Translations under genes and position numbers: made by a program
Shown here: one piece after another, positions 5,040-40,864 of the stretch
Numbering within the stretch: position 1 is the stretch's first letter
How the letters are laid out: each line of letters begins with the position of its first letter
Source of the DNA: Escherichia phage vB_EcoS_UTEC10
Reading direction: 5' to 3' (one strand)
DNA: 44,773 bases
Sequence record: PP291582.1
The notes under the pieces: model-generated
Databases searched by the model: none
Told to the model about the DNA's origin: nothing
Seen by the model: only the letters and a program-made list of their open reading frames with translations

Positions 5040-5070
5040 CTTCCATCTCTCCACTCGTCGGTGTAAATGA

Positions 5071-5099
5071 ATAGTAGCCTATTCTATCTTAGTGTGCAA
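5071..5099 (-). promoter_or_regulatory. promoter TTGCAC-N17-TACTAT with embedded AATAG-N4-CTATT inverted repeat
   Basis: Minus-strand reading of 5071-5099; inverted repeat at 5070-5083 lies in the spacer. Confidence 0.5.
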
Positions 5100-5106
5100 G
5101 TAAATT

Positions 5107-5280
5107 TTATTGGTGTGTTATAGAGTCGATGAACGCCAGTAACTCGCGCTCCGCTTCTGCTTCTCTTTCTTCAAGCAACCAGGTAGCGGATTCCTCTGTT
5201 GCCGTTGCTATATCGGTTTTCACATCAATCATCGTGTCTATTAACGCGATTAATCGTTCGGCCTGTTCTTTAGTAATCAT
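5107..5280 (-). CDS. hypothetical small acidic protein (57 aa)
   Basis: Manually translated (MITKEQAERLIALIDTMIDVKTD...); AGGAGA RBS 7 nt upstream; opposite-strand track ORF 5129..5341 is low-complexity. Confidence 0.4.
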   Translation of the reverse strand: MITKEQAERLIALIDTMIDVKTDIATATEESATWLLEEREAEAERELLAFIDSITHQ

Positions 5281-5415
5281 TGTTGCATCTCCTGCAATAA
5301 TCGCTTCTATTGTTGCGTTCGGTGAAAGTGTCGCTTTTTGACGACACTAATCTAAAGTTGTACGCTGCTGTGTAGCAGCGTAAGTCACTCAGTCAAATAG
5401 TAACCTATTGACCTG

Positions 5416-5616
5416 TTACACCAGTTTCGGCGGTTTAGGCAATTTCCTCCAGTGCGTTATATCCTCGTTGTCTATGACAGAGTTGAATTCATCCCAACTA
5501 TCCCACTCATCCGAATCATCATCGAACCATTTAATCTCAACCTCTCCCCCATCAGTCACAAGTACATGAGAGAAAGGAGCGGGCATCTGCTCACTGCACT
5601 TAATCCACTTACCCAT
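5416..5616 (-). CDS. DUF551-like phage protein
   Basis: MGKWIKCSEQMP...THWRKLPKPP pattern typical of small DUF551 phage proteins. Confidence 0.45.
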   Translation of the reverse strand: MGKWIKCSEQMPAPFSHVLVTDGGEVEIKWFDDDSDEWDSWDEFNSVIDNEDITHWRKLPKPPKLV

Positions 5617-5766
5617 ATCTCACCTCGTATTCATCACAGCTTGCACACCAGCTTTCCACGCCCGCCACGCTAGACGCGTCTTAATGTTCAGGTACTCTTT
5701 CTTTGAACCTTTGTTAACCGGCAGACCCTCGACGACAGCCCACCGTTCGAATGCTTCTCTCACAAC

Positions 5767-6033
5767 TCACCCCATCTTCTCTTTAACGTGCACCCAAAAC
5801 TCACCACAGTACCAGCACCACATAAGATTAGGCGTCTCGCGCACCCAACCGTAATCCTTGCGGGCACGAATCGGGATAATACCCTTAGTGAAATAATAAC
5901 CTGTTCGCAGAAACTCAGGGTCGCGAGTCGCAGTGCGCCACATGTTATAAAACTGCTCCAGCCCGGAACCCCGGCGCATGACCCGTATTTTATGGTTATA
6001 TTCCGCTACTGTTTTCAGTTCAGTGTTATTCAT
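5767..6033 (-). CDS. hypothetical protein
   Basis: 88 aa track ORF; ATG start; ATGA overlap with the upstream gene stop. Confidence 0.5.
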   Translation of the reverse strand: MNNTELKTVAEYNHKIRVMRRGSGLEQFYNMWRTATRDPEFLRTGYYFTKGIIPIRARKDYGWVRETPNLMWCWYCGEFWVHVKEKMG

Positions 6034-6284
6034 TTACGGCAACCTCCCTCAGAGTCGTCGGCACGGGCATCATGATTCGATGCCGTTGTGAATGATGCGG
6101 AAGCAACATCGAAGAAACTAACGGTTAAAGTCTCGCCCACAGCGTCCTCTAAATCCCATTCATCACCGTCTTCATCTAAAACGTATCGACGGCCGTCGTA
6201 ATATACTCCCGACGAATACTTGTTACCTTTTACAAACCAATGCTGCACATCTGGACCAGATTCAATACAAATTAATTCTCCCAT
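6030..6284 (-). CDS. hypothetical protein
   Basis: Track ORF 6030..6287 (GTG); ATG at 6284. Confidence 0.45.
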   Translation of the reverse strand: MGELICIESGPDVQHWFVKGNKYSSGVYYDGRRYVLDEDGDEWDLEDAVGETLTVSFFDVASASFTTASNHDARADDSEGGCRK

Positions 6285-6469
6285 CACTTCGCCCCTTTGA
6301 ATTTAAAATTGTTGCCGATGAGTGTTAAATCACATTTACGGAGCAGTCCCTTACCAAACCCAGCTACGCTATTAACCTCAACAAAACCGAACCACATTAG
6401 CTTCGACTCTATTACAGTGAATAAATCGCCGCTAAATTTATCCCTAACCAACTGACCTTTCTTAAACAT
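6284..6469 (-). CDS. hypothetical protein
   Basis: Track ORF 6284..6478 (GTG); ATG at 6469 with AAGGGGTGAGG RBS. Confidence 0.45.
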   Translation of the reverse strand: MFKKGQLVRDKFSGDLFTVIESKLMWFGFVEVNSVAGFGKGLLRKCDLTLIGNNFKFKGAK

Positions 6470-6487
6470 AACCCTCACCCCTTTGTC

Positions 6488-6706
6488 TTATTTAAAGTAG
6501 ATAGCGAATTTCTTGTAACCAGCAGGCTCGTTACGAAGCCCTTTACCGTTGGCGAAACGTTGTACGTTGTTAAAATCATTTTCATCCATTCCGTCGGTGT
6601 CGAACGTAAAGAAGCTGCGTTTGTTCCCGATAATTACGCGCTCTGAAATATCGATGCCGTAAACTTCTTTGATTGCGGAAACCACGCTTGCGGTCGCTTT
6701 GTTCAT
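6488..6706 (-). CDS. hypothetical protein, first gene of a leftward early operon
   Basis: 72 aa track ORF; ATG with AAGGAAT RBS; directly downstream of the promoter at 6741-6769. Confidence 0.5.
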   Translation of the reverse strand: MNKATASVVSAIKEVYGIDISERVIIGNKRSFFTFDTDGMDENDFNNVQRFANGKGLRNEPAGYKKFAIYFK

Positions 6707-6740
6707 TTCTGAATTCCTTATGTCTCGTTTCGATAAGTGA

Positions 6741-6769
6741 ATAGTATCCTATTATGTTGGGGTGTGCAA
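6741..6769 (-). promoter_or_regulatory. promoter TTGCAC-N17-TACTAT with embedded AATAG-N4-CTATT inverted repeat
   Basis: Same architecture as the 5071-5099 promoter; inverted repeat at 6740-6753. Confidence 0.5.
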
Positions 6770-7142
6770 GAGAATAGTTACGTTGCCGTTGTGATTCTTC
6801 AGGTAGGGTTGTGCCTTTATTCTTATTACTTGGTAACTAAAGGGCAGGCCCTAAGCCTGCCCAATAATCGTTACATTTTTACGGTTGCGAATCTACGGCA
6901 CTTTAAGAAAATCAGATACTTAAGATATATTCCGCCGATGGGAATAGAGCTTGCCCAGGGCAACCGGAGATACTTAGGAAGGAAAGTTACGATAATTCGA
7001 ATGTTCAGTAAACTGCCGCCTAACACTTCGCGTTGGGCGCTCGTTTTCGGCGGGTTTTACAAGGTGAACAGGAATCAAAGTAACTAAGATATAGAAGCAC
7101 CTTAAACGAAGATTTTCTTAATGTCAATAGGTGCGATTATGT

Positions 7143-7171
7143 TTGATTTCCCATTATTCGCAATGTATACT
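7143..7171 (+). promoter_or_regulatory. sigma70-like promoter TTGATT-N17-TATACT for the rightward operon
   Basis: Near-consensus hexamers with 17-nt spacer in the 460-bp divergent intergenic region; lacks the AATAG/CTATT repeat. Confidence 0.5.
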
Positions 7172-7203
7172 TGGTTTCGTTAACTGATAATGGGGGTTTG
7201 AGA

Positions 7204-7374
7204 ATGACACAGAATGAAGTAGCCGAGCGTATTGGGGTTACCCGTCGCACGCTGAATAACTGGTTAAAGAGTGGGAAGTTCCCGGATTGTTGTATCCGTA
7301 TTATGGGCCGCCGGCAGCCGGGTACTTTCGACCCGGAGAAAGTGGAAGCGTGGATTAAGGAGAATGTAAAATGA
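7204..7374 (+). CDS. AlpA/Xis-like HTH transcriptional regulator
   Basis: Internal ATG of track ORF 7171..7374; MTQNEVAERIGVTRRTLNNWLKSGKFP resembles AlpA-family HTH proteins. Confidence 0.5.
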   Translation: MTQNEVAERIGVTRRTLNNWLKSGKFPDCCIRIMGRRQPGTFDPEKVEAWIKENVK

Positions 7375-7604
7375 CCGAGTTCCAGTCCCGCGTATTTACG
7401 GCAGTCGTTTCATTAACCTGTAAAAAAGGGTCGTGCAGCGTTATGGACTTGCGCCGTAGTTATTTTAGGTACTATAGTTCCGCCATTATTGAAGGGTCGT
7501 TGAAGGTACTGGTTAAATCTGGTGTCGTGAAAAATGTTGGCGGGAAATATAGTGCTGTTGCCGAAGTTCGCGGAATGACCGCTACTTTAGAAGACCTGGA
7601 ATAA
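7371..7604 (+). CDS. hypothetical protein with C-terminal LEDLE tail
   Basis: 77 aa; ATGA overlap with the upstream gene; C-terminus ...ATLEDLE. Confidence 0.45.
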   Translation: MTEFQSRVFTAVVSLTCKKGSCSVMDLRRSYFRYYSSAIIEGSLKVLVKSGVVKNVGGKYSAVAEVRGMTATLEDLE

Positions 7605-7662
7605 AAGAAAGCCCCGACGCGGTGAACGCCGAGGCTAAATTACTTGCTGAAGGAAATATAAC

Positions 7663-9903
7663 ATGTCCGATGTAATTTTATCCTACTCGTGGTCTCGTCG
7701 CAACGCGCGGGCGGAGAAAAAGGATATAAACGTCAGAACCACACACACGGCAACGCTGGGCGACCTGAAAGATTTAATCCAGCCGCTTGATGCTGTCCGT
7801 GACGGAATTAACCCGAAGACCGCACCCGGTTATATCACCGCCGCGTGCGACTCCACACACAGCACCGTAAAAGACCCGGAAACAGGCGACTTTAAGCAGG
7901 CGCGTAAAGGCTTCTTCTATCGCTGTGATGCGTCTGTAAGCAAATCGTCGCTGGCGTATCTTGACTTCGACAGTGCAACGCCGGAAGAGTATCAGGAAGC
8001 GGTGCGCCTGGTTAAGCGCAGCCGCCAGGCGATGTGTCTCTACACCACGGCATCACATACCGACGAGTCGCCGCGCTTTCGCGTCGTCATGCCGCTGGCC
8101 CGCCCGGTTGAAGGTGGCGACATCATCCGTGTTCGCCATGGATTACTGGAGCACTTCTTCAAAGGCATGGGCGCGGACCGCAGCGGGTTCACTCTGTCGC
8201 AGCCGATGTACCTGCCGCCAGTTGGCGCTACTGTTATCTGGTCGCGCCGCAACGACCTGATTGACCCTGATGAGTTACTGGAAGGCGTCCCAGCCGTTGA
8301 CATCAGCAGCGCATCTGACTACCAGATACCGGAAGAACTGCGCACTGCGTTTACTGATGCGTTTGAGGCACTGGCGTTCGAGTACGGTGGCATCATGACG
8401 CCGCGCGGACTAAAAATGCCAGCTACACCGGAACACGCAGAGAACTACAGCGACCCGACGCCGCGCTCGGACGACTTCCTGCTGTGCTTCCCACGCGAGG
8501 GGTATGAAGCGCCGAACGTAACCATGATTCACGACACCGACATCACGGCAACCGAAGGCATGTCACCGAAAGAGGTGTGGAAATATGCGTGCGATGCGAC
8601 CGGGCTGCCGTTCAGTGAGGTCGCTGAGGCCATCGGTTGGGGTGCGCGTGAATCAGTTTCATGCAGTCTCGACGACCTGGAAGACGATGAGGACTCAGAG
8701 GAGGACGAGTTACCGGAGCCGGTAAAGGCTGATTTCGTCGTAGAAGGGTACATGCCGTCGGATTGCATATGGGATATTGTTGGGGAATCCGGTACGTATA
8801 AATCATTCTATACGCTGGGGATGATGTACCTCAGCGCCGCCGGATACCGGTTTGCAGGGGCGGATACCCAGCGTTGCCACCATTTCTATATTGACGGTGA
8901 GGGCGGCGCGGCCACACGCACACGTATCGATGCGCTCGCGGCTAAATACGGCGAGGAAGGTAAAGATTATGTACATGTTATCGACATGGGTGAAGTCGGA
9001 AAACTTAAAAGCCTGATTAAGTTAATGCGCGAAACTGCTGGCGACGAGCCAATCGGTATGGTCGCGTTCGACACCCTTAACCAGACGCTGGCCCTGACGA
9101 TTGATAAGTTCGACGAGAACAGTTCATCAACGGCAATCGGCATGGGTAAAGTTATCGCTATCCTGAAAGAAGTGCGTGATGCGACTAAAGCCGCAGTGGG
9201 CGTTGTGCACCATACGCCGAAGGGCGGAAAGAAAGCCCGTGGTAGTGGAGCATTGTATGCGGGTGTCGACGTGGAGCTGACAATCGAACGCGCGACCGAC
9301 CGTCAGATAAATGTATACCACTCTAAATTTAAGCACGGGCCCCAACAGAAGACGGTTGGTATGGTGCTGGAGTCTGTACAGTTCCGTGAAGCTCCGCCGC
9401 CGAAAGAGTACCGTGCGGTTGAGTTTCTTGGTAGTACAGAGGAATACGGCACAATCGTTAACCTGGACCTGCCTGAGCCTCACAAGGCGCTTGTGCTGAT
9501 GCCGTGGGGCTTCGAGCCGTTCAAAACTGACGAGGAGAAAGAGCGGGAAGAAGGGCTGACAAAGGAAGGTAAAGAAAACGTAAAGAATGCTGTAAAACGC
9601 GGGAAGGATGAAGGGCGTAAGGAGTCAATACTCGCCGCGCTGGAAGACCTGCAACAGTCCGACGACACCGGACGGGGTTTCACCCAACGGCAGATAGTAG
9701 CGAACTCCGGCGACCACGCCATCACAAACCACCATCTCGAGAAGATGTTGAAAGACGGTGAGTTGATGCTAGGGTGTGATGCCAACGGTGAAGTTATACC
9801 AGGAACATACCGGATACCTGAAAAGATGGGCGACAGATTAAGACCGAAGACAATATACGAACCGAATGAAATGCTTACAGTGACCGAGGAAGATTTGGAA
9901 TAG
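7663..9903 (+). CDS. bifunctional DNA primase / RecA-fold (DnaB/T7 gp4-like) helicase
   Basis: 746 aa; N-terminal primase-like region (RFRVVMPLARP), central acidic linker, C-terminal Walker-A-like GESGTYKS and HHTPKGG...RGSGAL motifs as in gp4-type helicases; ends EEDLE. Confidence 0.75.
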   Translation: MSDVILSYSWSRRNARAEKKDINVRTTHTATLGDLKDLIQPLDAVRDGINPKTAPGYITAACDSTHSTVKDPETGDFKQARKGFFYRCDASVSKSSLAYLDFDSATPEEYQEAVRLVKRSRQAMCLYTTASHTDESPRFRVVMPLARPVEGGDIIRVRHGLLEHFFKGMGADRSGFTLSQPMYLPPVGATVIWSRRNDLIDPDELLEGVPAVDISSASDYQIPEELRTAFTDAFEALAFEYGGIMTPRGLKMPATPEHAENYSDPTPRSDDFLLCFPREGYEAPNVTMIHDTDITATEGMSPKEVWKYACDATGLPFSEVAEAIGWGARESVSCSLDDLEDDEDSEEDELPEPVKADFVVEGYMPSDCIWDIVGESGTYKSFYTLGMMYLSAAGYRFAGADTQRCHHFYIDGEGGAATRTRIDALAAKYGEEGKDYVHVIDMGEVGKLKSLIKLMRETAGDEPIGMVAFDTLNQTLALTIDKFDENSSSTAIGMGKVIAILKEVRDATKAAVGVVHHTPKGGKKARGSGALYAGVDVELTIERATDRQINVYHSKFKHGPQQKTVGMVLESVQFREAPPPKEYRAVEFLGSTEEYGTIVNLDLPEPHKALVLMPWGFEPFKTDEEKEREEGLTKEGKENVKNAVKRGKDEGRKESILAALEDLQQSDDTGRGFTQRQIVANSGDHAITNHHLEKMLKDGELMLGCDANGEVIPGTYRIPEKMGDRLRPKTIYEPNEMLTVTEEDLE

Positions 9904-9912
9904 GTAAAAAGA

Positions 9913-9931
9913 AAGGGGCGTTAAGCCCCTT
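9913..9931. terminator. hairpin overlapping the stop codon of the XRE gene
   Basis: AAGGGGC-GTTAA-GCCCCTT stem-loop; T-rich flank on the minus strand. Confidence 0.4.
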
Positions 9932-10136
9932 CACCGAACGCCAGCCACTTAGCGTCTACTTCCAGCACTTCCGCCAGTTTAAACAGCGTCGACGGGCGGA
10001 CGTCCTGAGTCACCCCGAGTGCCAGCTGGTTAATTGCGCCCTGGGAAACGCCAGCCAGAACAGCCAGACGGCGCTGGGAGATACCTAATTCTTTACGGCG
10101 TTGCTCTACACGGATGCCTAGTTCAGATGGTTGCAT
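9921..10136 (-). CDS. XRE-family (Cro/CI-type) HTH transcriptional regulator
   Basis: 71 aa; LGISQRRLAVLAGVSQGAINQLALG is a canonical HTH_3 motif; lone minus-strand gene in the plus-strand replication block; AAGGAG RBS. Confidence 0.8.
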   Translation of the reverse strand: MQPSELGIRVEQRRKELGISQRRLAVLAGVSQGAINQLALGVTQDVRPSTLFKLAEVLEVDAKWLAFGEGA

Positions 10137-10166
10137 ATCAATTACTCCTTAGTCAGTTGATATGTG

Positions 10167-10180
10167 AATAGTACCATATT
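10167..10180 (-). promoter_or_regulatory. operator-like half-palindrome overlapping an extended -10 (TGG-TACTAT) for the XRE gene
   Basis: GAATAG-TACC-ATATT imperfect copy of the AATAG-N4-CTATT repeat; TGGTACTAT on the minus strand about 25 nt upstream of the XRE start. Confidence 0.4.
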
Positions 10181-10200
10181 AATTATTTTAGAAAAGCCCA

Positions 10201-10230
10201 TTGACATAATGAATAGTTCGCTATTATAGT
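10201..10230 (+). promoter_or_regulatory. strong sigma70-like promoter TTGACA-N18-TATAGT with embedded AATAG-N4-CTATT repeat
   Basis: Consensus -35; inverted repeat at 10212-10225 in the spacer; drives the acidic-protein gene. Confidence 0.6.
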
Positions 10231-10261
10231 TAACCCATACCAAACGAGAGGAGAGAAACAA

Positions 10262-10762
10262 ATGTTAGACCAATTTTTAAAATTACTGGAACGTTTCGTA
10301 GTCGCGCATGAACTGATTGCCGCAAACAGTGTGAAACGACCGGTGCCGCCGACTGAGCGTGTGGGCGAAATGCTTGTAGACGTGTCAGTTACGGGAGAGG
10401 TACTTGAAGTCGACCCGGGCACCGGCGTCGGGAAAGAAATCCCGGTCGAAGGCGAAGACGTCGTCGACACTAAACCGGCAGAAGAAGAGAAGCCGAAACG
10501 CAAGCCGCGTAAAGCTAAAGTAGATGAACCGACGCCAGAGCCGGAAGAAGAAGTCGATTACCAGTCTCTTCGTGACCAGATTCAGGCTATCGACGATGCG
10601 ATTAACGAAGGTCCTAGCGATGCTGCGTGCGATGATTCCGATGAACTGCTGGAAGAGTTCACCGGTAAGAAAATGAAGATTGCCGCGATTAAAGACGAAG
10701 ACCTGGCGGAATACCTGGAGCGCCTGACAGCAATCAAGAACAAGTATTTCGAAGAAGAATAA
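10262..10762 (+). CDS. highly acidic protein
   Basis: 166 aa rich in Asp/Glu with a short basic patch (KPKRKPRKAK); strong RBS GAGAGGAGAG; flanked by promoter and terminator. Confidence 0.55.
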   Translation: MLDQFLKLLERFVVAHELIAANSVKRPVPPTERVGEMLVDVSVTGEVLEVDPGTGVGKEIPVEGEDVVDTKPAEEEKPKRKPRKAKVDEPTPEPEEEVDYQSLRDQIQAIDDAINEGPSDAACDDSDELLEEFTGKKMKIAAIKDEDLAEYLERLTAIKNKYFEEE

Positions 10763-10769
10763 ATATACC

Positions 10770-10788
10770 GCGGCCTTCGGGCCGCTTT
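10770..10788 (+). terminator. Rho-independent terminator/attenuator
   Basis: GCGGCC-TTCG-GGCCGC hairpin followed by TTT. Confidence 0.5.
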
Positions 10789-10805
10789 AACTGAGGGTCG
10801 GAAAT

Positions 10806-11078
10806 ATGATTTACCAACTCTACCGCGCCGTTGACAGACGGGACAACACGGAGGCGCTATGGTTATTGCGTGCACCGTCCGGCGCGCACCAGATGGAAGA
10901 GATGGCGTACTTAGGAAAAGTACCGCGACCTAAAGATATAGGCCGCCACGTGTCGCAGATTAAGCGCACGACTTTCGCCAAACCTGACTTTTATGTCTTC
11001 GAGTCAATGTATGGGTGGGCTATGCATTGTCATCACCAAACGCGACATTTAATTGACCAGTGGGAGAACAGGGTATGA
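10806..11078 (+). CDS. hypothetical protein
   Basis: 90 aa; GAGGGT RBS; stop overlaps the start of the exonuclease gene (ATGA at 11075). Confidence 0.5.
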   Translation: MIYQLYRAVDRRDNTEALWLLRAPSGAHQMEEMAYLGKVPRPKDIGRHVSQIKRTTFAKPDFYVFESMYGWAMHCHHQTRHLIDQWENRV

Positions 11079-12316
11079 TTTTAAAGGAACGCGGCGGCAA
11101 CAACGATGTGCACGCCTTACTATCACCGTCGGGTGCTAAGAAGTGGCTAACCTGCGCGGCGTCACTGGCCTGTGAAAAAGATATTCCTAACACGTCAGGT
11201 AAGGCCGCAGTGTTAGGCACAGCTATGCACACTATAGCTGAGGTCCATCTAAACCAGTACATCAAAGGCACTGCGTTACCGTTAGAGCGCGAAGTTGGCG
11301 CTTACGTGCTGGATGAGGGTAAAGGACAGATTAAGGCGTTAATCAGCCCGATGAAAGGCGCGGTACTGATTACGGCTGACATGATTGAACAGGTTCGCAA
11401 GTACACCGACTACTGCAAAGCGATTATCGATGTAGCGACTTACGCCAAGCTGGAAATGCGCGTCAATCTTACTGAGGTGTTGCACCCAGGCTACGAAGGC
11501 GTCGAGACGTTCGGAACGGCCGACCTTGTTGCCGTGCAGGAACTGGCCAACACCGACGAGCACATGCTTATTATCGGCGACCTGAAAACTGGACGACATC
11601 GTGTCGAAGCGAAAGAAAACAAGCAGCTTATGCTTTACGCTCTCGGTGTTTATCGCCGACTCAAGAGACGTTATAACATCACCGTTGTTCGTCTGGTCAT
11701 CTTTCAGCCGTATGCTGGAGGTGCGTCGGAGTGGGACATCTCGGTTGAAGGCCTTGAACTGTTCGCTAAGTTTGCGCAGAAACGCGCACTGTTGGCTCTC
11801 GATGCGTATTCCCGTGGCAAGAAGAATCTGAAAGCGTCGGACTTCAGGCCGTCGGTAGACGGTTGTCAGTGGTGCCGGTTCTCTGAACAGTGCGCCGCGC
11901 GTACAAAAACCGTTAACGCGGTACTGGCGGAAGAACTGGAAGACGACTTTGCGCTGGAACTGACACCAGAGCAACTCGTAACTGAGTATGAGAAATTGCC
12001 GCTGTTGCGCCAGCATATCGACAAGGTTGAAAAAGCTATGGCTGCTGCGTTGCATTCCGGTAAAAAAGTTCCTGGGTACAAACTGGTAGAAGGTCGCCCG
12101 GGTAATCGTGCGTGGAAAGACGCAGAGAAAGTAGCAGAACTCTACGGCGACAAGCTGACTAAAGAAGTGCTCATGACGCCAACCGAAGCTGTTAAAGTCA
12201 TACCGGAAGAAGAGCTGAAAAACTTCATTACCCGTAAGCCCGGTGCACCATGTGTCGCAACGGCAGACGACAAACGCCCTGAGTGGAATCAGGTTAGTGA
12301 AGAAGATTTGGAATAA
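11075..12316 (+). CDS. PD-(D/E)XK exonuclease, Cas4/RecB-like (DUF2800-type)
   Basis: Internal ATG of track ORF 11060..12316; LLSPSGAKKWLTC N-terminus, IIGDLKTG...EAKENKQLMLYAL nuclease motifs, C-terminal CQWCRFSEQC cysteine cluster; ends EEDLE. Confidence 0.7.
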   Translation: MILKERGGNNDVHALLSPSGAKKWLTCAASLACEKDIPNTSGKAAVLGTAMHTIAEVHLNQYIKGTALPLEREVGAYVLDEGKGQIKALISPMKGAVLITADMIEQVRKYTDYCKAIIDVATYAKLEMRVNLTEVLHPGYEGVETFGTADLVAVQELANTDEHMLIIGDLKTGRHRVEAKENKQLMLYALGVYRRLKRRYNITVVRLVIFQPYAGGASEWDISVEGLELFAKFAQKRALLALDAYSRGKKNLKASDFRPSVDGCQWCRFSEQCAARTKTVNAVLAEELEDDFALELTPEQLVTEYEKLPLLRQHIDKVEKAMAAALHSGKKVPGYKLVEGRPGNRAWKDAEKVAELYGDKLTKEVLMTPTEAVKVIPEEELKNFITRKPGAPCVATADDKRPEWNQVSEEDLE

Positions 12317-12320
12317 AGTG

Positions 12321-12349
12321 TTGACACCTGAATAGTTAGCTATTATAGT
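12321..12349 (+). promoter_or_regulatory. sigma70-like promoter TTGACA-N17-TATAGT with embedded AATAG-N4-CTATT repeat
   Basis: Consensus -35; inverted repeat at 12331-12344. Confidence 0.6.
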
Positions 12350-12402
12350 TCTAATCACTGGCCGGGCAGCTCCCGGAGTAAACTGAAAAGCGAGAAATCA
12401 CG

Positions 12403-13029
12403 ATGGGTATTAAACTGAATCTGCGTAAAGTAAACACTGCTTGGGTTAACGTATTCGAACGCGAAAAAGACCGTGAAAACGATGATGGCTCCATCACTAA
12501 AGGCCAGTACAGCGCGACTATCATCTTGCCGTCTGACCATGCTCAAATTGATGCGCTCTACGACACAGTTTACGCTGTAGTTGAAGAAGCGTTAGGTGCA
12601 GCCGCTGCCGAGAAGTGGATGAAGTCCAACTACGGCGAAGGTAAGCACATGGATAAATGCGCGATTAAAGACATTGCCGAGCGCGACAATCCGTTTGAAG
12701 ACTTCCCGGAAGGCTTCTACTTCAAGGCGAAGGCACAGAAACAGCCACTGATTGTAACCTCTAAAAAAGGTGAGACTCAGGTAGAGCAGGACTTCAACGT
12801 AGATGGTGAACAGATTGAAGGCGAACAGGTTTACAGCGGATGCGTCGCTAACGTAAGCGTCGAAATCTGGTTCAGCCAGAAATACAAAGTTCTCGGTGTT
12901 AACCTGCTGGCAATTAAATACGTCGGCGAAGGTAAAGCGTTCGGTGGTTCTAAAGTCGCAGCAAGTGTCAATGACCTGGAAGACGACGAAGAAGATGAAG
13001 CACCTCGCCGCGAACGTCGTCGCCGCTAA
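12403..13029 (+). CDS. ssDNA-binding-like protein (DUF2815-type) with acidic/basic C-terminal tail
   Basis: 208 aa; follows the DUF2800 nuclease as in the conserved nuclease / SSB-like / polymerase phage module; C-terminus DLEDDEEDEAPRRERRRR. Confidence 0.55.
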   Translation: MGIKLNLRKVNTAWVNVFEREKDRENDDGSITKGQYSATIILPSDHAQIDALYDTVYAVVEEALGAAAAEKWMKSNYGEGKHMDKCAIKDIAERDNPFEDFPEGFYFKAKAQKQPLIVTSKKGETQVEQDFNVDGEQIEGEQVYSGCVANVSVEIWFSQKYKVLGVNLLAIKYVGEGKAFGGSKVAASVNDLEDDEEDEAPRRERRRR

Positions 13030-13048
13030 CATCTGAATCAATTTAACT

Positions 13049-13072
13049 AAGGCCCTTCATTGGGCCTTTTTA
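13049..13072 (+). terminator. Rho-independent terminator
   Basis: AAGGCCC-TTCATT-GGGCCTT hairpin followed by TTTT. Confidence 0.55.
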
Positions 13073-13085
13073 CTAAGGGTCGAAA

Positions 13086-15810: not shown

Positions 15811-16109
15811 CACCGGAAGGAAAAATACAGAAATACGCAAAAGAGCAATTCGAGGCCATTGGTGGCCTCGTTCGTAAACTTTCCTATGAGGGGCGCTCCG
15901 GCGCTCCCGACCTTCTGGTAATTCTCCCCGGCGGCATCGTCTGGTTCGTCGAGGTGAAGAAAGATGAAAACACGAAGCCAGACCCACACCAGCTACGGGA
16001 ACATGAGCGTATGCGTAAACGTGGTGCAAATGTTTTTGTCGTTGGTTCGTTTAAACAGGTTGACGACCTAATAGCGAACTATTATAGTAGTCATACACCA
16101 ACAATATAA
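15807..16109 (+). CDS. VRR-NUC domain nuclease
   Basis: GAPDLLVILPGGIVWFVEVKKD matches the VRR-NUC PD-(D/E)XK motif; GTG start overlapping the upstream stop. Confidence 0.65.
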   Translation: MTPEGKIQKYAKEQFEAIGGLVRKLSYEGRSGAPDLLVILPGGIVWFVEVKKDENTKPDPHQLREHERMRKRGANVFVVGSFKQVDDLIANYYSSHTPTI

Positions 16110-16120
16110 GGAATTGAGAA

Positions 16121-28863: not shown

Positions 28864-28970
28864 TCTTTAATCCTTTGGTTAAGAGGTTACTGGTTAAGGT
28901 GAATGCGCCAGGCGGGAACCACCCGCTTTTCGTGTGCGACACTAGGCGCAAACTTATTCTAGCACACTAC

Positions 28971-28999
28971 TTGCAGGCCCCAATATAATAGGGTACTAT
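28971..28999 (+). promoter_or_regulatory. cassette promoter TTGCAG-N17-TACTAT with embedded TATAAT and AATAG-GGTA-CTATT repeat
   Basis: CCAATATAATAGGGTACTATTCA is repeated near-identically at 38644-38668 and 40816-40840. Confidence 0.55.
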
Positions 29000-29029
29000 T
29001 CACTTACACCAACAATGGAGGAATTTAAA

Positions 29030-31429: not shown

Positions 31430-31455
31430 AAGGCCCCGAAAGGGGCCTTAGTTTT
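31430..31455. terminator. bidirectional Rho-independent terminator (AAGGCCCC-GAAA-GGGGCCTT)
   Basis: Same stem and AGTTTTA flank as the 19060-19086 terminator; overlaps the major tail gene stop. Confidence 0.65.
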
Positions 31456-33915: not shown

Positions 33916-34529
33916 TACGCAGCCTCCAGTCTCGAAATAACCAGTAGCGCAGATGGTGCTGTGCCCCATGCAGTTACCGTAGCCGCTTGCGGGTATACGC
34001 CGCCGAAGTTACTCCCGGCGCTATCCCGCATAATCTGAACGGCAAACGTCTGGCCTGCGGTCGGGTTAATAACGACGCGAGACTCAATCGGGATTGTGGT
34101 ATCGGCGCTAACTAGTTTTGTAGCGGCGGGTGAGCCGTACTGAGCACCGTTCAGAAGAATGCGCGATAGCAAGATAGATGTACCGCTGGCCCCAGTGCGC
34201 CCAGCCTGTAACTTGATGCGAACGGCGTAGTTACCTGCGGTGTTGAACGTAACCAGCCCCGCGGCATTAATCATTACAGGGTCGGATGCGCTACCCTGTG
34301 CAGCTCCAAAAGTTAACTGCAACGCCGTGTTCGTTGCGGTGGGCACTTGTATCACGGTCGACGCTGCGCGGAGAACTTCAACCTCTTTAACACCGGGAGT
34401 GGCGTAAATAGGTGAGTCCGCCATCTGCGTCATTACCTCGCGTAGCTTCGCGGGTGTGATGGCACCGTTGGTGTTATCGGGGAGATTCGCGCCGATGAGG
34501 GTGAACATCTCTGATTTAGTCTTCGCCAT
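33915..34529 (-). CDS. virion structural protein
   Basis: 204 aa Ala/Thr/Gly-rich protein in the connector region. Confidence 0.45.
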   Translation of the reverse strand: MAKTKSEMFTLIGANLPDNTNGAITPAKLREVMTQMADSPIYATPGVKEVEVLRAASTVIQVPTATNTALQLTFGAAQGSASDPVMINAAGLVTFNTAGNYAVRIKLQAGRTGASGTSILLSRILLNGAQYGSPAATKLVSADTTIPIESRVVINPTAGQTFAVQIMRDSAGSNFGGVYPQAATVTAWGTAPSALLVISRLEAA

Positions 34530-38317: not shown

Positions 38318-38636
38318 GTTTCTCCTTTCTCGATAAGTAAAGCCCCGCCATAAAGCGGGGCGCTAGTCCTTATCATTTAAACATAGAAACGGCGTAATCT
38401 CAGTAAACCCGGTACTTTTTACACAAGCAATAGAGTATGGCCCTTCCGAACGCGTCAGCGTAACTACACTCGGACTTAACGTCCGGCTCCGTTACCTGCC
38501 CGCGCCGCGGTCGCTTGTTCATACTTCACAAGCTCAGGTGGAGCTTATCATATTTTCAGTGAAAAGTCAACTATTCGAATAGTTTATTCCAACATTTACA
38601 ATTGAGCGGAATAACTGGAATACGTAAACAAATAGT

Positions 38637-38665
38637 TTGCGGACACCAATATAATAGGGTACTAT
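38637..38665 (+). promoter_or_regulatory. cassette promoter TTGCGG-N17-TACTAT with embedded AATAG-GGTA-CTATT repeat
   Basis: Near-identical to the promoters at 28971 and 40809. Confidence 0.55.
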
Positions 38666-38691
38666 TCATTACAACGAAACGAGGAGGGTGT

Positions 38692-39231
38692 ATGCTCACT
38701 AAACGTTCAGAAGCCATAGCCGCTGGTGATGATTATTACTTCACGGGAAAACCGTGTAAACGTGGGCATGTTGCGAAAAGGCATGTCCGCACCGGGTGCT
38801 ATGAGTGCGCTAAAGAGATACAAAAATCGTACCGAGAACGCAACGTTGTTTCTTGGGCGGCGAAAAACGCAAAATGGAGGCAAGAAAATAGAGACCGAAT
38901 AGCCGAAATTGACGCAGAGTACCGTAAGAAAAACAAAACCGCCAGGAAAGCCCAAAGGCTAAAGTATAAAACGGCAAAAAGAGCCAGGAGTATAAACATC
39001 AGGAATGATGAATTTGACCTATTAGTATTCGAAGAAGCGCAGGAGCTATGTCAACTACGAGCGGGCGAAACAGGTTTCGTATGGCATATCGACCACATGC
39101 TGCCGCTGCGTGCTAAAACTGTCTCGGGGCTGCATGTCGCAGAAAACATACAAGTTATCCCCGCGGTTCTGAATCTCTTAAAAGGTAATAAATTAATTTT
39201 CACCGAGAGAGGCTCTTGGTTGTCTTCCTGA
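38692..39231 (+). CDS. HNH endonuclease (free-standing)
   Basis: Internal ATG with GAGGAGGG RBS; GDDYYFTGKPCKRGH zinc-binding N-terminus and HIDHMLPLRAK...N HNH motif. Confidence 0.75.
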   Translation: MLTKRSEAIAAGDDYYFTGKPCKRGHVAKRHVRTGCYECAKEIQKSYRERNVVSWAAKNAKWRQENRDRIAEIDAEYRKKNKTARKAQRLKYKTAKRARSINIRNDEFDLLVFEEAQELCQLRAGETGFVWHIDHMLPLRAKTVSGLHVAENIQVIPAVLNLLKGNKLIFTERGSWLSS

Positions 39232-39236
39232 AATTG

Positions 39237-39259
39237 AGGCCCCTTAATGGGGCCTTTTA
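39237..39259 (+). terminator. Rho-independent terminator (AGGCCCC-TTAAT-GGGGCCT)
   Basis: GC stem followed by TTTTAT. Confidence 0.55.
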
Positions 39260-39721
39260 TCATTCTGGCTTAGTAACCTTCGCCGCTTTACTCACAGCCT
39301 CTACTCCATCAGCATCGGTAACTTTAACGAAGTATTCACCGACAGCATTAACTGTCAGAGACAAAGCCTCTTCCGGGGCGTTTACCACTTCCTTACCGTC
39401 TTTGTACCAGGTCAGCGCATACGGCGCTTTGCCCGCCTTAACTTCAACAGTAAGAGTCGCGCTGCCGTCTACCAATTCGGTGTCTTTCGGTTGTACAGAG
39501 AAATACACATCACCAGCGTCCGCCAGATACGGAATCTCGTAAAGCATACCAGCCGCCGGAAGCGCAATACCGGTTTTATCTGCAAACGGCATATCGTCTA
39601 CAGGTGTACCCAGTACACTTTCGTCCTCAATAAATACCACGTTCTCGCCAGAGCCAGACACGCGGGTGTACTGGACAACACGACGCGACGGTACATCAGT
39701 TACTTTGAAAAAGCCCATCAT
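39260..39721 (-). CDS. Ig-like (BIG2-type) domain virion protein
   Basis: C-terminal YALTWYKDGKEV...GEYFVKVTDADG Ig-like pattern; downstream of head morphogenesis gene. Confidence 0.5.
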   Translation of the reverse strand: MMGFFKVTDVPSRRVVQYTRVSGSGENVVFIEDESVLGTPVDDMPFADKTGIALPAAGMLYEIPYLADAGDVYFSVQPKDTELVDGSATLTVEVKAGKAPYALTWYKDGKEVVNAPEEALSLTVNAVGEYFVKVTDADGVEAVSKAAKVTKPE

Positions 39722-40764
39722 TATTCCCCTTTCAGATAATCAGCAACACGTTTATCGAGTTCCGCCATCTGCTTAAGCGTGAGCGGATTCCCGAAACCAT
39801 CTACAGATATTACGCGAAACTCCTCTGGTGAGATACCGCTGTTACGGAAAATCTTGCCTCGCACCGGCCCGAGCGCCTGGTCCTGGAACCATGCCGGTTG
39901 CTGTTTCAGGAACTCATAATAGGTGGTGTCAGCGCTTACCTGAGTACCGCCGTTCGCACCCTTAGCCGCGCGTTTTGCACCTTTATCCAGGAAGTCGAAT
40001 TCTGAACTGATTACCGGGGCCGTGCACGACCGACAATTCGGATGGGCAGGGGGCATCGGCCCCTTACCTATTTCCCACGTCATTCCGTCCCTGGCTCTGC
40101 AAATCGTGCTGGTACGGCTGTCCAGCGTCGACACCCACTCGTACTTCTCAATGATGTCGTCGTTCTGGCGGTATGTCTCGTTGCGGGCTTCGTTGGACAC
40201 GTGAGCCAGCGCGGTACGGATTACTGTAGCCGCGTTGCGTTCAGAGATGTCAGCCAGTCCCCCAGCGCCTACGACATTCTTAACAATCTGCCGTGTTGTT
40301 TGGCCCTGAACAAAGCCCATCTTAACGCCGGTTACCAGGCGCGACACTTCTGTTTCACCCCAGCCGTCCATCAGCTTAGTGAAGTCAACAGGCTTGTCGT
40401 TCAACGCCAGAGGTTGAAACTCGGCAGCAGCCCACACTTGCTCGGCAGTAGGCGTAACAAATTCCGCATTAACGTTGGCGGTCAGAGTCTTTACGTTCCA
40501 TTCGGCCTCATACGCCGCCAGCTCCTTAAGGTCTTCTGTCAGCTTTGTTTGCCAGTCGCCTGTAAACCCCGTTAGCGCTTCTTCGAGGTCGCGTAACAAT
40601 TTATTCAGACGGGCAGTGCTTCGCCCGTCGTCACCGAACAACAGCACCTGCCGTTTGATTTCGTCCCGCATTTCCTGAAGAAACGGTGCAAGGTCTTTCA
40701 CTTCGCCGGATGCAGTGCGTTGCAGCCATATCTGGTGGCTGATTAAGGATGTAAGTAAGCTCAT
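39721..40764 (-). CDS. head morphogenesis protein (SPP1 gp7 / Mu F-like)
   Basis: Internal ATG with AGGAGGG RBS; ICRARDG...PPAHPNCRSC motif characteristic of gp7/F-family minor head proteins. Confidence 0.75.
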   Translation of the reverse strand: MSLLTSLISHQIWLQRTASGEVKDLAPFLQEMRDEIKRQVLLFGDDGRSTARLNKLLRDLEEALTGFTGDWQTKLTEDLKELAAYEAEWNVKTLTANVNAEFVTPTAEQVWAAAEFQPLALNDKPVDFTKLMDGWGETEVSRLVTGVKMGFVQGQTTRQIVKNVVGAGGLADISERNAATVIRTALAHVSNEARNETYRQNDDIIEKYEWVSTLDSRTSTICRARDGMTWEIGKGPMPPAHPNCRSCTAPVISSEFDFLDKGAKRAAKGANGGTQVSADTTYYEFLKQQPAWFQDQALGPVRGKIFRNSGISPEEFRVISVDGFGNPLTLKQMAELDKRVADYLKGE

Positions 40765-40808
40765 AATCCCTCCTGTAGTACCGACAGTGTAACGCATAAA
40801 AATAATAT

Positions 40809-40837
40809 TTGCAGACACCAATATAATAGGGTACTAT
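40809..40837 (+). promoter_or_regulatory. cassette promoter TTGCAG-N17-TACTAT with embedded AATAG-GGTA-CTATT repeat
   Basis: Third copy of CACCAATATAATAGGGTACTATTCA. Confidence 0.55.
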
Positions 40838-40864
40838 TCAGTTAACTTAAGCAGGAGATGAAAA

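What the first reader, a model, noticed from the sequence alone, without database searches (positions are those of the whole stretch)
5070..40838. One inverted repeat (AATAG-N4-CTATT) embedded in the spacer of at least eight promoters
Copies lie at 5070-5083, 6740-6753, 10167-10180 (imperfect), 10212-10225, 12331-12344, 28987-29000, 38653-38666 and 40825-40838, always between -35-like (TTGACA/TTGCAC/TTGCAG) and -10-like (TATAGT/TACTAT) hexamers. They precede leftward early genes, the XRE regulator, the acidic-protein and SSB-like genes, and all three plus-strand cassettes. This is an operator-in-promoter arrangement suggesting one dimeric regulator (the XRE protein at 9921-10136, the AlpA-like protein, or the HTH-phosphoesterase) controls a genome-wide regulon. 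The promoter at 7143-7171 lacks the repeat.
Basis: seen in the sequence. Interest (0 to 1): 0.75.

Follow-up and report, generated by a model that had tools for sequence, protein, structure and literature searches.

The report
Cro-like repressor sites in phage promoters
A 14-base palindrome sits inside about a dozen promoters of this E. coli phage and is most likely where the phage's own small 434-Cro-like protein binds to turn those promoters down; the mechanism is a familiar kind used in an unusually dispersed way, and the repeat itself has been reported before under a wrong label.

Summary
AATAG-N4-CTATT occurs 9 times exactly against about 0 expected. All eight listed sites are real.

The window is a Kagunavirus genome (Guernseyvirinae). 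The repeat is not always in the promoter spacer. It sits at four or five different registers relative to the sigma-70-like hexamers, and in six sites TACTAT lies inside the repeat.

Between Kagunavirus and Jerseyvirus the arms are conserved (77/80) and the centre is not (17/32). That pattern points to a dimer-binding operator, not a promoter element.

The best candidate binder is the 71-aa XRE protein (9921-10136, minus strand):
- Its closest solved relative by sequence and by fold is phage 434 Cro, which binds 14-bp operators.
- It is present in every genus that carries a related repeat.
- Its own promoter carries a weakened copy of the repeat.

The AlpA-like protein and the HTH-phosphoesterase do not fit this distribution across genera.

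The repeat is already published as PHIRE "phage RNAP promoters", but these phages encode no RNA polymerase. I found no paper linking it to the Cro-like protein. Binding is untested. This is a new variant of a known kind, of moderate interest.

The parts
9921..10136 (-). 71-aa XRE/HTH_3 protein, 434-Cro-like; proposed binder of the repeat
   Evidence: Pfam HTH_3, E 1.4e-12. The best PDB sequence hit is 434 Cro, E 5.6e-7, aligned over the full length. The AF2 model has pLDDT 85 and five helices; the top fold hit is 2cro, TM 0.80/0.86, rmsd 1.6 A. tblastn finds it in 564 phage records, essentially all Guernseyvirinae.
10167..10180 (-). Weakened repeat (AATAT-GGTA-CTATT read on the minus strand) in the XRE gene's own promoter. 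Extended -10 TGgTACTAT (TG at 10176-10175, TACTAT at 10173-10168); no -35.
   Evidence: Conserved in relatives. Jerseyvirus and Cornellvirus also have degenerate copies at the XRE promoter.
10201..10230 (+). Class B promoter TTGACA-18-TATAGT with the repeat at 10212-10225 in the spacer. It is divergent from the XRE gene and drives hyp49, hyp48 and the exonuclease.
   Evidence: (11/12 consensus match).
12321..12349 (+). Class B promoter TTGACA-17-TATAGT with the repeat at 12331-12344. It drives the gp2.5-like SSB and the DNA polymerase.
   Evidence: The orthologous Cornellvirus promoter carries ATTAG-TACA-GTATT.
16060..16088 (+). It drives hyp37, the methyltransferase and the helicase.
   Evidence: The 14-mer is the reverse complement of the one at 10212.
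6741..6769 (-). Class A promoter TTGCAC (6769-6764), 17-nt spacer, TACTAT (6746-6741), with the repeat at 6740-6753. It drives the leftward early genes starting at 6706.
5071..5099 (-). Class A promoter TTGCAC (5099-5094), 17-nt spacer, TACTAT (5076-5071), with the repeat at 5070-5083. It drives the leftward genes through HslV-like, the holins and the endolysin.
5396..5409 (-). It has TACTAT but no -35, and is followed by two strong conserved hairpins.
   Evidence: The 96 nt downstream fold with z = -4.3.
28971..29000 (+). Class A promoter TTGCAG (28971-28976), 17-nt spacer, TACTAT (28994-28999), with the repeat at 28987-29000. It drives cassette 1: Imm, HTH-phosphoesterase, polynucleotide kinase and dNMP kinase.
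38637..38666 (+). Class A promoter TTGCGG-17-TACTAT with the repeat at 38653-38666. It drives cassette 2 (endonuclease VII-like).
40809..40838 (+). Class A promoter TTGCAG-17-TACTAT with the repeat at 40825-40838. It drives cassette 3 (DUF7170 and an unknown gene).
1532..1565 (-). Class C promoter. The -35 TTGACT (1560-1555) lies inside the weakened repeat ACTAG-TTGA-CTATT (1565-1552 on the minus strand); -10 TATATT at 1537-1532. It follows the endolysin terminator and leads to small genes and then the terminase.
   Evidence: In Jerseyvirus the mirror-image half-site is the weakened one (AATAG-TTGA-CTAGT).
38542..38575 (-). Class C promoter. The -35 TTGACT (38570-38565) lies inside the weakened repeat AATAG-TTGA-CTTTT (38575-38562 on the minus strand); extended -10 TGaTAAGCT (-10 at 38547-38542). 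It leads to Rz/Rz1, the scaffold and the major capsid protein.
   Evidence: Identical in Bas73 and S100. Listed as host promoter HP1 in PMC9825357 Table S2.

Best explanation
The 14-bp palindrome AATAG-N4-CTATT is most likely the operator of the phage's own 71-aa 434-Cro-like HTH protein (9921-10136, minus strand).

Proposed mechanism:
1. Host sigma-70 RNA polymerase starts transcription at about a dozen phage promoters.
2. A dimer of the Cro-like protein binds the palindrome. Each recognition helix reads one AATAG arm, and the four central bases are not read.
3. Every copy overlaps a core promoter element: the spacer just before the -10, the -10 itself, or the -35. Binding therefore excludes polymerase and turns the promoter down.
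4. Perfect operators sit in the early leftward promoters, the replication promoters and the three opposite-strand cassettes. Copies with one weakened half-site sit in the regulator's own promoter and in two promoters that lead into late genes. Those should be repressed less, or later.

Shown here: the sites, their enrichment and symmetry, their conservation pattern, their overlap with promoter hexamers, the protein's family and fold, and its distribution across genera.

Inferred: that this protein binds these sites, that the effect is repression, and the graded-affinity timing.
For: (1) Enrichment: 9 exact sites against 0 in 100 shuffles. It is the top palindrome in Kagunavirus and Jerseyvirus genomes.

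(2) Operator-like conservation: between the window and Jerseyvirus S100 orthologous sites, the arms are identical at 77/80 positions and the centre at 17/32 (Fisher p = 1.7e-7). Alignments of 18-43 unique orthologues show the same pattern.

(3) The repeat is independent of the polymerase hexamers. It starts 4-5 nt after the -35 (class B), 7 nt after (S100 17568), 10 nt after (class A), 5 nt before the -35 hexamer starts (class C), and about 19 nt after in one Cornellvirus promoter. The same 14-mer occurs in both orientations, at 10212 and 16070.

(4) The left arm falls in spacer positions where sigma-70 has no sequence requirement, yet it is invariant.

(5) The protein: HTH_3. Its best solved relative is 434 Cro by sequence (E 5.6e-7, full length) and by fold (TM 0.80/0.86, rmsd 1.6 A). 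From established knowledge, 434 Cro and repressor bind 14-bp operators of the form ACAA-N6-TTGT.

(6) Distribution across genera (tblastn): the XRE protein is present in Kagunavirus, Jerseyvirus and Cornellvirus. All three carry AWTAS-N4-STAWT repeats in promoters, 4-9 sites against about 0.5 expected. It is absent from the Dhillonvirus, which shares the replication module but has no repeat.

(7) Autoregulatory layout: a weakened copy sits in the XRE promoter and a strong copy in the divergent promoter, in all three genera.

(8) Analogy by homology: in temperate-phage locus L089, a CI-type repressor has an HTH domain 43% identical to this protein. It sits beside five ATAAG-N4-CTTAT sites with the same 5-N4-5 geometry.

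(9) Suggestive covariation: Klebsiella phage VLCpiS11a has a more divergent XRE (41% identity, recognition helix LSQSALSF). It lacks AATAG repeats and has ATATGA-N6-TCATAT in at least two promoter spacers.
Against: No binding or expression data exist.

Kagunavirus and Jerseyvirus XRE proteins are only 51% identical and differ at 4 of 7 recognition-helix positions (SQGAINQ against SQSLITH). Yet both use the same AATAG arms, so simple helix-to-site covariation is not seen between these two genera.

The only RNA-seq time course for a Kagunavirus (PMC12645636) is too coarse to show turn-down. It places the XRE gene among 42 'middle' genes.

The class A -35 (TTGCAn) is a weak match, so those promoters might need an extra factor.

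One of the many uncharacterised small early proteins, or a host factor, cannot be excluded as the binder.

The Klebsiella phage evidence rests on only two exact sites.
Confidence: 0.58

Rival explanations
1. The repeat is an operator, but for a different protein: the AlpA-like HTH_17 protein (7204-7374), the HTH-phosphoesterase (29259-30389), an uncharacterised small early protein, or a host transcription factor.
For: Both named proteins carry HTH motifs. Many early genes have no known function. The XRE recognition helix differs between Kagunavirus and Jerseyvirus while the site does not. The AlpA-like gene is among the four earliest genes in the Kagunavirus RNA-seq study.
Against: The AlpA-like protein is absent from Cornellvirus, which keeps related repeats at orthologous promoters. 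The phosphoesterase, including its N-terminal HTH, is 76% identical in a Dhillonvirus that has no repeat, and it is absent from Cornellvirus. From general knowledge, AlpA/Xis-type 56-aa proteins usually bind direct repeats rather than 14-bp palindromes. I know of no E. coli or Salmonella factor with this site (memory only). The Dhillonvirus infects the same host and lacks the repeat.
Confidence: 0.2
2. The conserved 20-mer is a phage-specific promoter, as published from PHIRE output. It would be read by a phage RNA polymerase, or by host polymerase redirected by a phage factor, and would not be a repressor site.
For: PHIRE finds it, and two papers label it a phage promoter or regulatory element: PMC9825357 with consensus tgAATAGTa-ccTATTat-T and PMC8790156. 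Class A sites share about 35 bp, well beyond the palindrome. Their -35 matches only TTG (one search does not list them).
Against: No RNA polymerase or sigma factor is annotated in the window's relatives, and no unassigned ORF is large enough. The element occurs in both orientations relative to transcription and at four or five registers relative to good sigma-70 hexamers. A polymerase-recognition element would have a fixed position and polarity. Conservation is symmetric, with a free centre.
Confidence: 0.07
3. No factor binds the repeat. The palindrome would be a by-product of A/T-rich -10-like sequence (TATAGT, TACTAT, TATTAT) and of promoter copies spread by duplication.
For: The right arm overlaps or abuts a -10-like hexamer in every class. 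The three cassette promoters are near-identical copies.
Against: The left arm lies where polymerase imposes no sequence, yet it is invariant over the Kagunavirus-Jerseyvirus divergence, while the adjacent centre and flanks drift. The chance expectation is about 0.04 sites. Class C sites place the palindrome over the -35 rather than the -10.
Confidence: 0.08

Closest known systems
Phage 434 Cro (and 434 repressor) with the 14-bp operators OR1-3 and OL1-3
   Same: It is a small (71 aa), all-helical HTH_3 protein and the closest solved relative by sequence and fold. Its operator is a 14-bp palindrome with conserved outer bases and a non-contacted centre, and it overlaps promoters. The glutamine at the start of the recognition helix is conserved, and both half-sites begin with A. 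The 434 contact details are from memory, not tested here.
   Different: The half-site is AATAG rather than ACAA(G). The sites are single and scattered over about 12 promoters across the genome, not clustered as two tripartite operators. No CI partner, integrase or lysogeny module is present. Sequence identity is only about 40%.
Lambda-type Cro turn-down of early transcription during lytic growth
   Same: The proposed role is the same: an early or middle small repressor lowers early promoter activity once enough early product has been made.
   Different: Lambda Cro acts at two operator regions. Here the replication, cassette and some late-direction promoters each carry their own operator, in a phage regarded as strictly virulent.
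Mycobacteriophage L5 gp71 'stoperators' (from memory)
   Same: One phage repressor has many binding sites dispersed through the genome.
   Different: Stoperators are asymmetric 13-bp sites. They lie within transcribed regions in one orientation and block elongation. The sites here are symmetric and lie in core promoters.
PHIRE 'phage promoters' reported for Kagunavirus fBC-Eco01 and Jerseyvirus SGP-C
   Same: They are the same sequence element. PP1-PP7 in PMC9825357 Table S2 are the same 20-mers as the window's sites. SGP-C reports TAATAGTACCCTATTATGTT.
   Different: Those papers treat it as a promoter for a phage RNA polymerase, or as an undefined regulatory element. They do not note the dyad symmetry and do not connect it to the Cro-like gene, although SGP-C calls that gene 'Cro'.
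Restriction-modification controller (C) proteins and their C-boxes
   Same: They are XRE-fold dimers found among the fold hits (C.BclI, C.AhdI, C.Esp1396I). They bind palindromes inside their own promoter, with graded affinity.
   Different: C-proteins act on one or two promoters and both activate and repress through paired boxes. I found no evidence of activation here. The distance from the repeat to the divergent tail-operon -10 is 23, 25 or 34 nt in three genera.

Membership tests
Cro/CI-type (XRE, HTH_3) repressor with palindromic operator | Regulator has an HTH_3 domain and the five-helix 434 Cro/repressor fold | tested here: met
   Pfam HTH_3, E 1.4e-12. phmmer hit to 434 Cro, E 5.6e-7. 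AF2 model with five helices and pLDDT 85; Foldseek top hit 2cro, TM 0.80/0.86.
Cro/CI-type (XRE, HTH_3) repressor with palindromic operator | Operator is a 14-18 bp dyad with conserved arms and a freer centre | tested here: met
   AATAG-N4-CTATT. Arms 77/80 identical against centre 17/32 across genera. Orthologue alignments agree.
Cro/CI-type (XRE, HTH_3) repressor with palindromic operator | Operators overlap core promoter elements so that binding excludes polymerase | tested here: met
   All 11 promoter-associated sites overlap the -35, the -10, or the last part of the spacer. The overlap is with predicted hexamers, not mapped start sites.
Cro/CI-type (XRE, HTH_3) repressor with palindromic operator | Operator at the regulator's own gene (autoregulation) | tested here: met
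   A weakened site at 10167 lies in the XRE promoter and a strong site at 10212 in the divergent promoter. Jerseyvirus and Cornellvirus have the same layout.
Cro/CI-type (XRE, HTH_3) repressor with palindromic operator | The protein physically binds the operator as a dimer and represses | not testable with these tools
   Needs EMSA or footprinting, reporter assays, or protein-DNA co-folding.
Lambdoid immunity region (CI + Cro + tripartite OR/OL) | Divergent CI repressor with an S24 peptidase domain, clustered triple operators, and an integrase | tested here: not met
   No CI or integrase appears among the 81 annotated genes of the 90%-identical Bas73 or in S100. The sites are single and dispersed. 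By contrast, locus L089 has this layout.
Phage-RNA-polymerase promoters (the published PHIRE label) | A phage-encoded RNA polymerase exists | tested here: not met
   None is annotated in relatives, and no ORF of suitable size is left unassigned.
Phage-RNA-polymerase promoters (the published PHIRE label) | Fixed polarity and fixed distance to the transcription start | tested here: not met
   The element occurs in both orientations relative to downstream genes and in at least four registers relative to the sigma-70-like hexamers.
MerR-type spacer operators | Dyad in an over-long (19-20 bp) spacer, with a MerR-family activator that has a coiled-coil dimerisation helix | tested here: not met
   Spacers are 17-18 bp. 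The only MerR-like hit is weak and falls within the 56-aa AlpA-like protein, which is absent from Cornellvirus.
Stoperator-type dispersed repressor sites | Asymmetric site, oriented with transcription, inside transcribed regions | tested here: not met
   The sites are symmetric and lie upstream of the predicted start points.

The most novel reading that the evidence does not exclude
The Cro-like protein and its graded set of operators would be the master timer of a phage regarded as strictly virulent.
- Perfect sites shut off early, replication and cassette promoters.
- Weakened sites spare its own promoter and the late-direction promoters.
- Silencing the cassette promoter at 28971-29000 frees the back-to-back tail-operon promoter (28956-28961).

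Because nearly every early promoter carries an operator, the same protein could also hold the genome silent as an episome. That would explain the 'lysogens' with superinfection immunity reported for a Jerseyvirus (PMC8790156). It would matter for Guernseyvirinae used in phage therapy and biocontrol.
Probability: 0.15. Interest if true: 0.7.

Novelty: new variant of a known kind. Interest (0 to 1): 0.42.

Why it matters
Guernseyvirinae (Kagunavirus, Jerseyvirus, Cornellvirus) account for more than 500 sequenced phages and are widely proposed for therapy and food biocontrol. Their transcription programme is essentially unstudied.

If the reading is right, the published "phage RNA polymerase promoter" label is wrong. 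These elements are host sigma-70 promoters carrying a repressor site.

It also gives a simple, testable circuit: one 71-aa protein and one 14-bp site at about 12 promoters. That circuit could explain how a virulent siphophage without its own polymerase orders its gene expression. It also offers a compact, portable repressor-operator pair for engineering.

It bears on safety claims as well. A repressor able to silence almost all early promoters is relevant to reports of carrier or pseudolysogenic states in this group.

Tried and rejected
- **Sigma-54 reading of the class A TTGCA.** No GG element lies at the required 10-bp distance upstream (inspection sequences).
- **TATAAT just upstream of class A repeats as the real -10.** No -35 lies at 16-18 nt.
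- **The repeat as an activator site for the divergent tail-operon promoter.** The repeat-to-(-10) distance is 25 nt in the window, 23 nt in S100 and 34 nt in Cornellvirus, so the phasing is not conserved.
- **The repeat as an RNA hairpin.** It lies upstream of the predicted start sites and would form only a weak 5-bp A/U stem.
- **More sites at two mismatches.** Only scattered, mostly genic hits turned up.
- **A natural XRE knockout.** Locus L087 has a frameshifted XRE but keeps its sites. This is probably a sequencing error and is uninformative.
- **Timing from the K1B4 RNA-seq paper.** There are only three coarse classes, with 42 of 57 genes called 'middle'. The supplement gives coordinates only.
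- **Clean helix-to-site covariation.**
  - Cornellvirus uses a degenerate version (AWTAS) that overlaps the Kagunavirus site rather than a distinct one.
  - Jerseyvirus has a different recognition helix but the same site.
  - The Klebsiella phage VLCpiS11a has a different repeat, but with only 2 exact copies.
- **Rfam on relatives for the int-alpA hit.** Nothing reached threshold, although the sequence is conserved.

Full report
**What the window is.** Megablast places the window in Kagunavirus (Guernseyvirinae). It is 94% identical to Escherichia phage CR01 and about 90% to the K1G, K1H and K1ind phages and Bas73. In all, 503 related records were found, mostly Salmonella and Escherichia siphophages. 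I mapped the 81 annotated genes of Bas73 onto the window, which gives this layout:
- Leftward genes at 152-6706: small early genes, an HslV-like protein, holins and the endolysin.
- Rightward replication genes at 7204-19052.
- The structural genes on the minus strand from 44690 down to 19084, interrupted by three short plus-strand cassettes.

**Checking the observation.** AATAG-N4-CTATT occurs nine times exactly, against none in 100 dinucleotide-preserving shuffles. The composition-based expectation is 0.04, and it is by far the most enriched 5-Nx-5 palindrome in the window.
One is 16070, inside a strong TTGACG-17-TATAGT promoter. The other is 5396, an orphan.
These are conserved in relatives and lie in promoters.
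- The one-mismatch hits at 20357 and 21828 are inside tail genes and match the chance expectation of about 1.2.
- A two-mismatch scan added nothing.

**Anatomy: the repeat is not simply in the spacer.** Reading each site in the direction of its downstream gene gives three arrangements.

| Class | Sites | Arrangement |
|---|---|---|
| B | 10212, 12331, 16070 | TTGACA/G, a 17-18 nt spacer, TATAGT. The repeat starts 4-5 nt after the -35, and its last T is the first T of the -10. |
| A | 5070, 6740, 28987, 38653, 40825; 10167 as an extended -10 variant | TTGCAn, a 17 nt spacer, TACTAT. The repeat starts 10 nt after the -35, and TACTAT is positions 8-13 of the repeat. |
| C | 1552, 38562 | The -35 TTGACT is formed by the centre and right arm of a weakened repeat (ACTAG-TTGA-CTATT; AATAG-TTGA-CTTTT). 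|

- The three class B promoters are the best sigma-70 matches in the first 19 kb (10-11 of 12).
- At 10167 the mismatch that weakens the left arm creates the TG of an extended -10 (TGgTACTAT). That promoter has no -35.
- Jerseyvirus S100 adds a fourth register, 7 nt after the -35 with -10 TATTAT. One Cornellvirus promoter adds a fifth.
- The 14-mers at 10212 and 16070 are reverse complements of each other, so the element works in either orientation relative to transcription.

An element that keeps its own sequence, slides relative to the polymerase hexamers and always overlaps the core promoter behaves like a repressor operator. It does not behave like part of the promoter.

**Conservation.** The same palindrome is the top one in Bas73 (7 exact sites) and in Jerseyvirus S100 (5 exact plus conserved one-mismatch sites). 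It is absent from a Dhillonvirus that shares the replication module at about 60% polymerase identity.
- Across eight orthologous promoter pairs between the window and S100, the arms are identical at 77 of 80 positions and the four central bases at 17 of 32 (p = 1.7e-7). Eight of those 17 central matches come from class C, where the centre doubles as the -35.
- Alignments of 18-43 unique orthologous sequences per site show the same pattern: conserved arms and hexamers, variable centre.
- Cornellvirus genomes carry a degenerate version, AWTAS-N4-STAWT, at orthologous promoters. This includes the SSB promoter and the promoter divergent from the XRE gene. There are 6 and 4 sites against about 0.5 expected.
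- The weakened class C sites are weakened in a mirror-image way. The post-lysis promoter has ACTAG as its left arm in Kagunavirus and CTAGT as its right arm in Jerseyvirus. That looks like selection for one strong and one weak half-site.

**Which protein.** The 71-aa product of 9921-10136 (minus strand) is an HTH_3 protein.
- Its best match among all solved structures is phage 434 Cro, also 71 aa. The alignment runs end to end with E = 5.6e-7. 434 repressor and P22 c2 follow.
- A single-sequence AlphaFold model (pLDDT 85, five helices) has 434 Cro (2cro) as its top Foldseek hit: TM 0.80/0.86, rmsd 1.6 A, 41% identity.
- 434 Cro and repressor bind 14-bp operators with conserved outer bases and a non-contacted centre (established knowledge). 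That is the geometry seen here.
- The alignment shows that the glutamine at the second position of the recognition helix is kept, while the next residue is glycine instead of glutamine. From my memory of the 434 complexes, the first glutamine contacts the outermost adenine and the second reads positions 2-3. That would fit a change from ACAAG to AATAG, but I did not test it.

The distribution across genera singles out this protein (tblastn).

| Candidate | Kagunavirus | Jerseyvirus | Cornellvirus | Dhillonvirus (no repeat) |
|---|---|---|---|---|
| XRE protein | present | present (51% identity) | present (41% identity) | absent |
| AlpA-like protein | present | present | absent | absent |
| HTH-phosphoesterase | present | present | absent | present (76% identity, including its HTH) |

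In the phage collection the XRE protein is found in 564 records, essentially all of the subfamily. It is annotated variously as repressor, DicA or hypothetical. Bas73 does not annotate it; a short opposite-strand ORF is called there instead.

In all three genera the XRE gene's own promoter carries a degenerate copy of the repeat, and the divergent promoter carries a good one. That is the usual layout of an autoregulated repressor.

Two outgroups add support:
- In temperate-phage locus L089, a 271-aa CI-type repressor has an HTH domain 43% identical to the window's protein. It sits beside five ATAAG-N4-CTTAT sites with the same 5-N4-5 geometry.
- In the Klebsiella Guernseyvirinae phage VLCpiS11a, the XRE protein is more divergent and the AATAG repeat is absent. 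A different palindrome, ATATGA-N6-TCATAT, fills the spacer of at least two TTGCA-type promoters. That is only 2 exact copies, so it is suggestive at best.

One point counts against a tidy story. Kagunavirus and Jerseyvirus proteins differ at four of seven recognition-helix positions yet use the same arms.

**What the regulon covers.**
- Perfect sites drive the two leftward early operons, three replication-gene promoters and all three plus-strand cassettes. The cassettes encode:
  - a superinfection-immunity protein, the HTH-phosphoesterase, polynucleotide kinase and dNMP kinase;
  - an endonuclease VII-like protein;
  - DUF7170 and an unknown protein.
- Weakened sites lie in the XRE promoter and in two promoters that read in the late direction. 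One follows the endolysin terminator. The other precedes Rz, the scaffold and the major capsid gene.
- At least three promoter-like sites have no repeat:
  - 7143-7171, upstream of the AlpA-like gene and the primase-helicase;
  - TGTACA-18-TATAAT at 44746-44717, upstream of the terminase;
  - an extended -10 (TGcTAGAAT, 28961-28956) for the tail-chaperone and tape-measure operon.

**Most likely mechanism.** Host sigma-70 polymerase starts at all these promoters. The Cro-like protein is made from its own weak, -35-less promoter. As it accumulates, it binds the perfect operators as a dimer and excludes polymerase. The imperfect operators are occupied later or less fully. The sites, their symmetry, their conservation and the protein's family are shown here. 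Binding, the sign of the effect and the timing are inferred. I put 0.58 on the full statement. I put roughly 0.8 on the narrower claim that the repeat is an operator for some phage-encoded dimeric protein.

**Rivals.**
- A different binder (0.20) is disfavoured by the distribution across genera, but it is not excluded.
- The published label, phage RNA polymerase promoter, fails. No such enzyme is encoded, and the element has neither fixed polarity nor fixed register (0.07, which includes a host polymerase redirected by a phage factor).
- A pure by-product of A/T-rich -10 sequence and promoter duplication (0.08) does not explain the invariant left arm, which lies in positions that sigma-70 does not read.

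**Prior knowledge and novelty.** The element has been seen before.
- PMC9825357 lists seven 'phage RNAP promoters' in Kagunavirus fBC-Eco01 whose 20-mers are the window's sites (consensus tgAATAGTa-ccTATTat-T). It lists the 38562 promoter as a host promoter.
- PMC8790156 reports TAATAGTACCCTATTATGTT in Jerseyvirus SGP-C. It calls the XRE gene 'Cro' and the AlpA-like gene a possible 'cI', and it claims lysogens with immunity.
- PMC7203180 reports seven PHIRE promoters in phage Golestan.
- In the papers I could search, none notes the dyad symmetry or links the element to the Cro-like protein.

So the parts are known and the mechanism is of a classic kind. What is new is the reading: a Cro-only repressor with single operators dispersed over about a dozen promoters of a virulent phage. 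That reading also corrects a published annotation. I rate it a new variant of a known kind, with moderate interest.

**Limits.** All promoter assignments rest on consensus matches and conservation, not mapped 5' ends. The only transcriptome for the genus is too coarse to test the timing.

Noticed in passing
window 28888-28952 (-), with the putative promoter at 28956-28961 (-): Rfam int-alpA RNA (RF02996) hits at 36.4 bits (gathering score 35.8). The hit begins 4 nt after an extended -10 (TGcTAGAAT) that lies back-to-back with the cassette promoter at 28971-29000. It sits in the leader of the tail-chaperone and tape-measure operon. The sequence is conserved in Bas73, Jerseyvirus S100 and Cornellvirus W5_chr3, with what looks like a compensatory change in the outer stem (GCGCC:GGCGC to GCGGC:GCCGC). 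Those relatives fall just below the Rfam threshold. The phage also encodes an AlpA-like protein (7204-7374), so that protein may regulate late genes through this leader rather than bind the repeat.
   Followed up: partly
window 31430-31449, 39236-39256, 41337-41356: Each of the three plus-strand cassettes ends in the same G+C-rich hairpin, AAGGCCCC-N4-GGGGCCTT. The one at 31430 has T-runs on both strands. Each cassette is therefore a unit bounded by the same repeat-bearing promoter and the same terminator. The number and content of cassettes differ between relatives: Bas73 has two, the window three and S100 more. This looks like modular, exchangeable early-gene cassettes inside the late operon.
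   Followed up: partly
window 5300-5409 (-): The orphan exact repeat at 5396 has no -35. It is followed on the minus strand by two strong hairpins (ACGCUGCU-ACAC-AGCAGCGU and GUGUCGUC-N6-GCGACAC). The 96-nt stretch folds at -29.2 kcal/mol with z = -4.3. The first hairpin is highly conserved, also in Jerseyvirus, where a degenerate repeat follows it instead of preceding it. It could be a terminator pair or a small RNA.
   Followed up: partly
window 5'-UTRs after the repeat-bearing promoters, e.g. 6707-6735 (-), 38667-38691 (+), 10226-10261 (+), 1499-1531 (-): Many leaders share CGAAACGAG(A/G)GGAG or ACCAACAA just upstream of the ribosome-binding site. The Klebsiella phage VLCpiS11a has AACCAAC in the same position and TGTTGGTTGCAA at eight intergenic regions. 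This may be a translation-initiation or transcript-stability element common to the subfamily.
   Followed up: no
window 44717-44746 (-) and 44690-44773: A promoter-like site, TGTACA-18-TATAAT, follows a terminator hairpin directly and lies about 25 nt upstream of the small terminase gene. It has no repeat, and its leader has its own hairpin (AGACGCG-N5-CGCGTCT). It is a candidate late promoter outside the regulon.
   Followed up: no
window 6707-7203: A stretch of about 500 bp lies between the divergent leftward early operon and the AlpA-like/primase operon. Relatives annotate it as a hypothetical gene (hyp55, 6737-7027 +) whose start overlaps the 6740 repeat. It contains two terminator-like hairpins (6842-6862, 7017-7039). 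It may be non-coding, for example a replication origin or regulatory region.
   Followed up: no
L001 (Bas73) 34027-34239 (+): The Cro-like gene is not annotated in Bas73. A 31-aa ORF on the opposite strand (34042-34137) is called instead. Several other records label the gene hypothetical, or have no feature there.
   Followed up: yes
L100 (Klebsiella phage VLCpiS11a) 4743-5297 and 35652-35934: Two long intergenic regions are packed with (A/T)CTCGCAA repeats, including the palindrome CTCGCAAAATTTTGCGAG. This is unrelated to the window's repeat and may be iterons or another regulator's sites.
   Followed up: no
literature: PMC8790156 (Jerseyvirus SGP-C): The paper reports 'lysogens' with superinfection immunity, and possibly an episomal state, for a member of a subfamily regarded as strictly virulent. 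A repressor with operators in nearly all early promoters could provide a mechanism for this.
   Followed up: no
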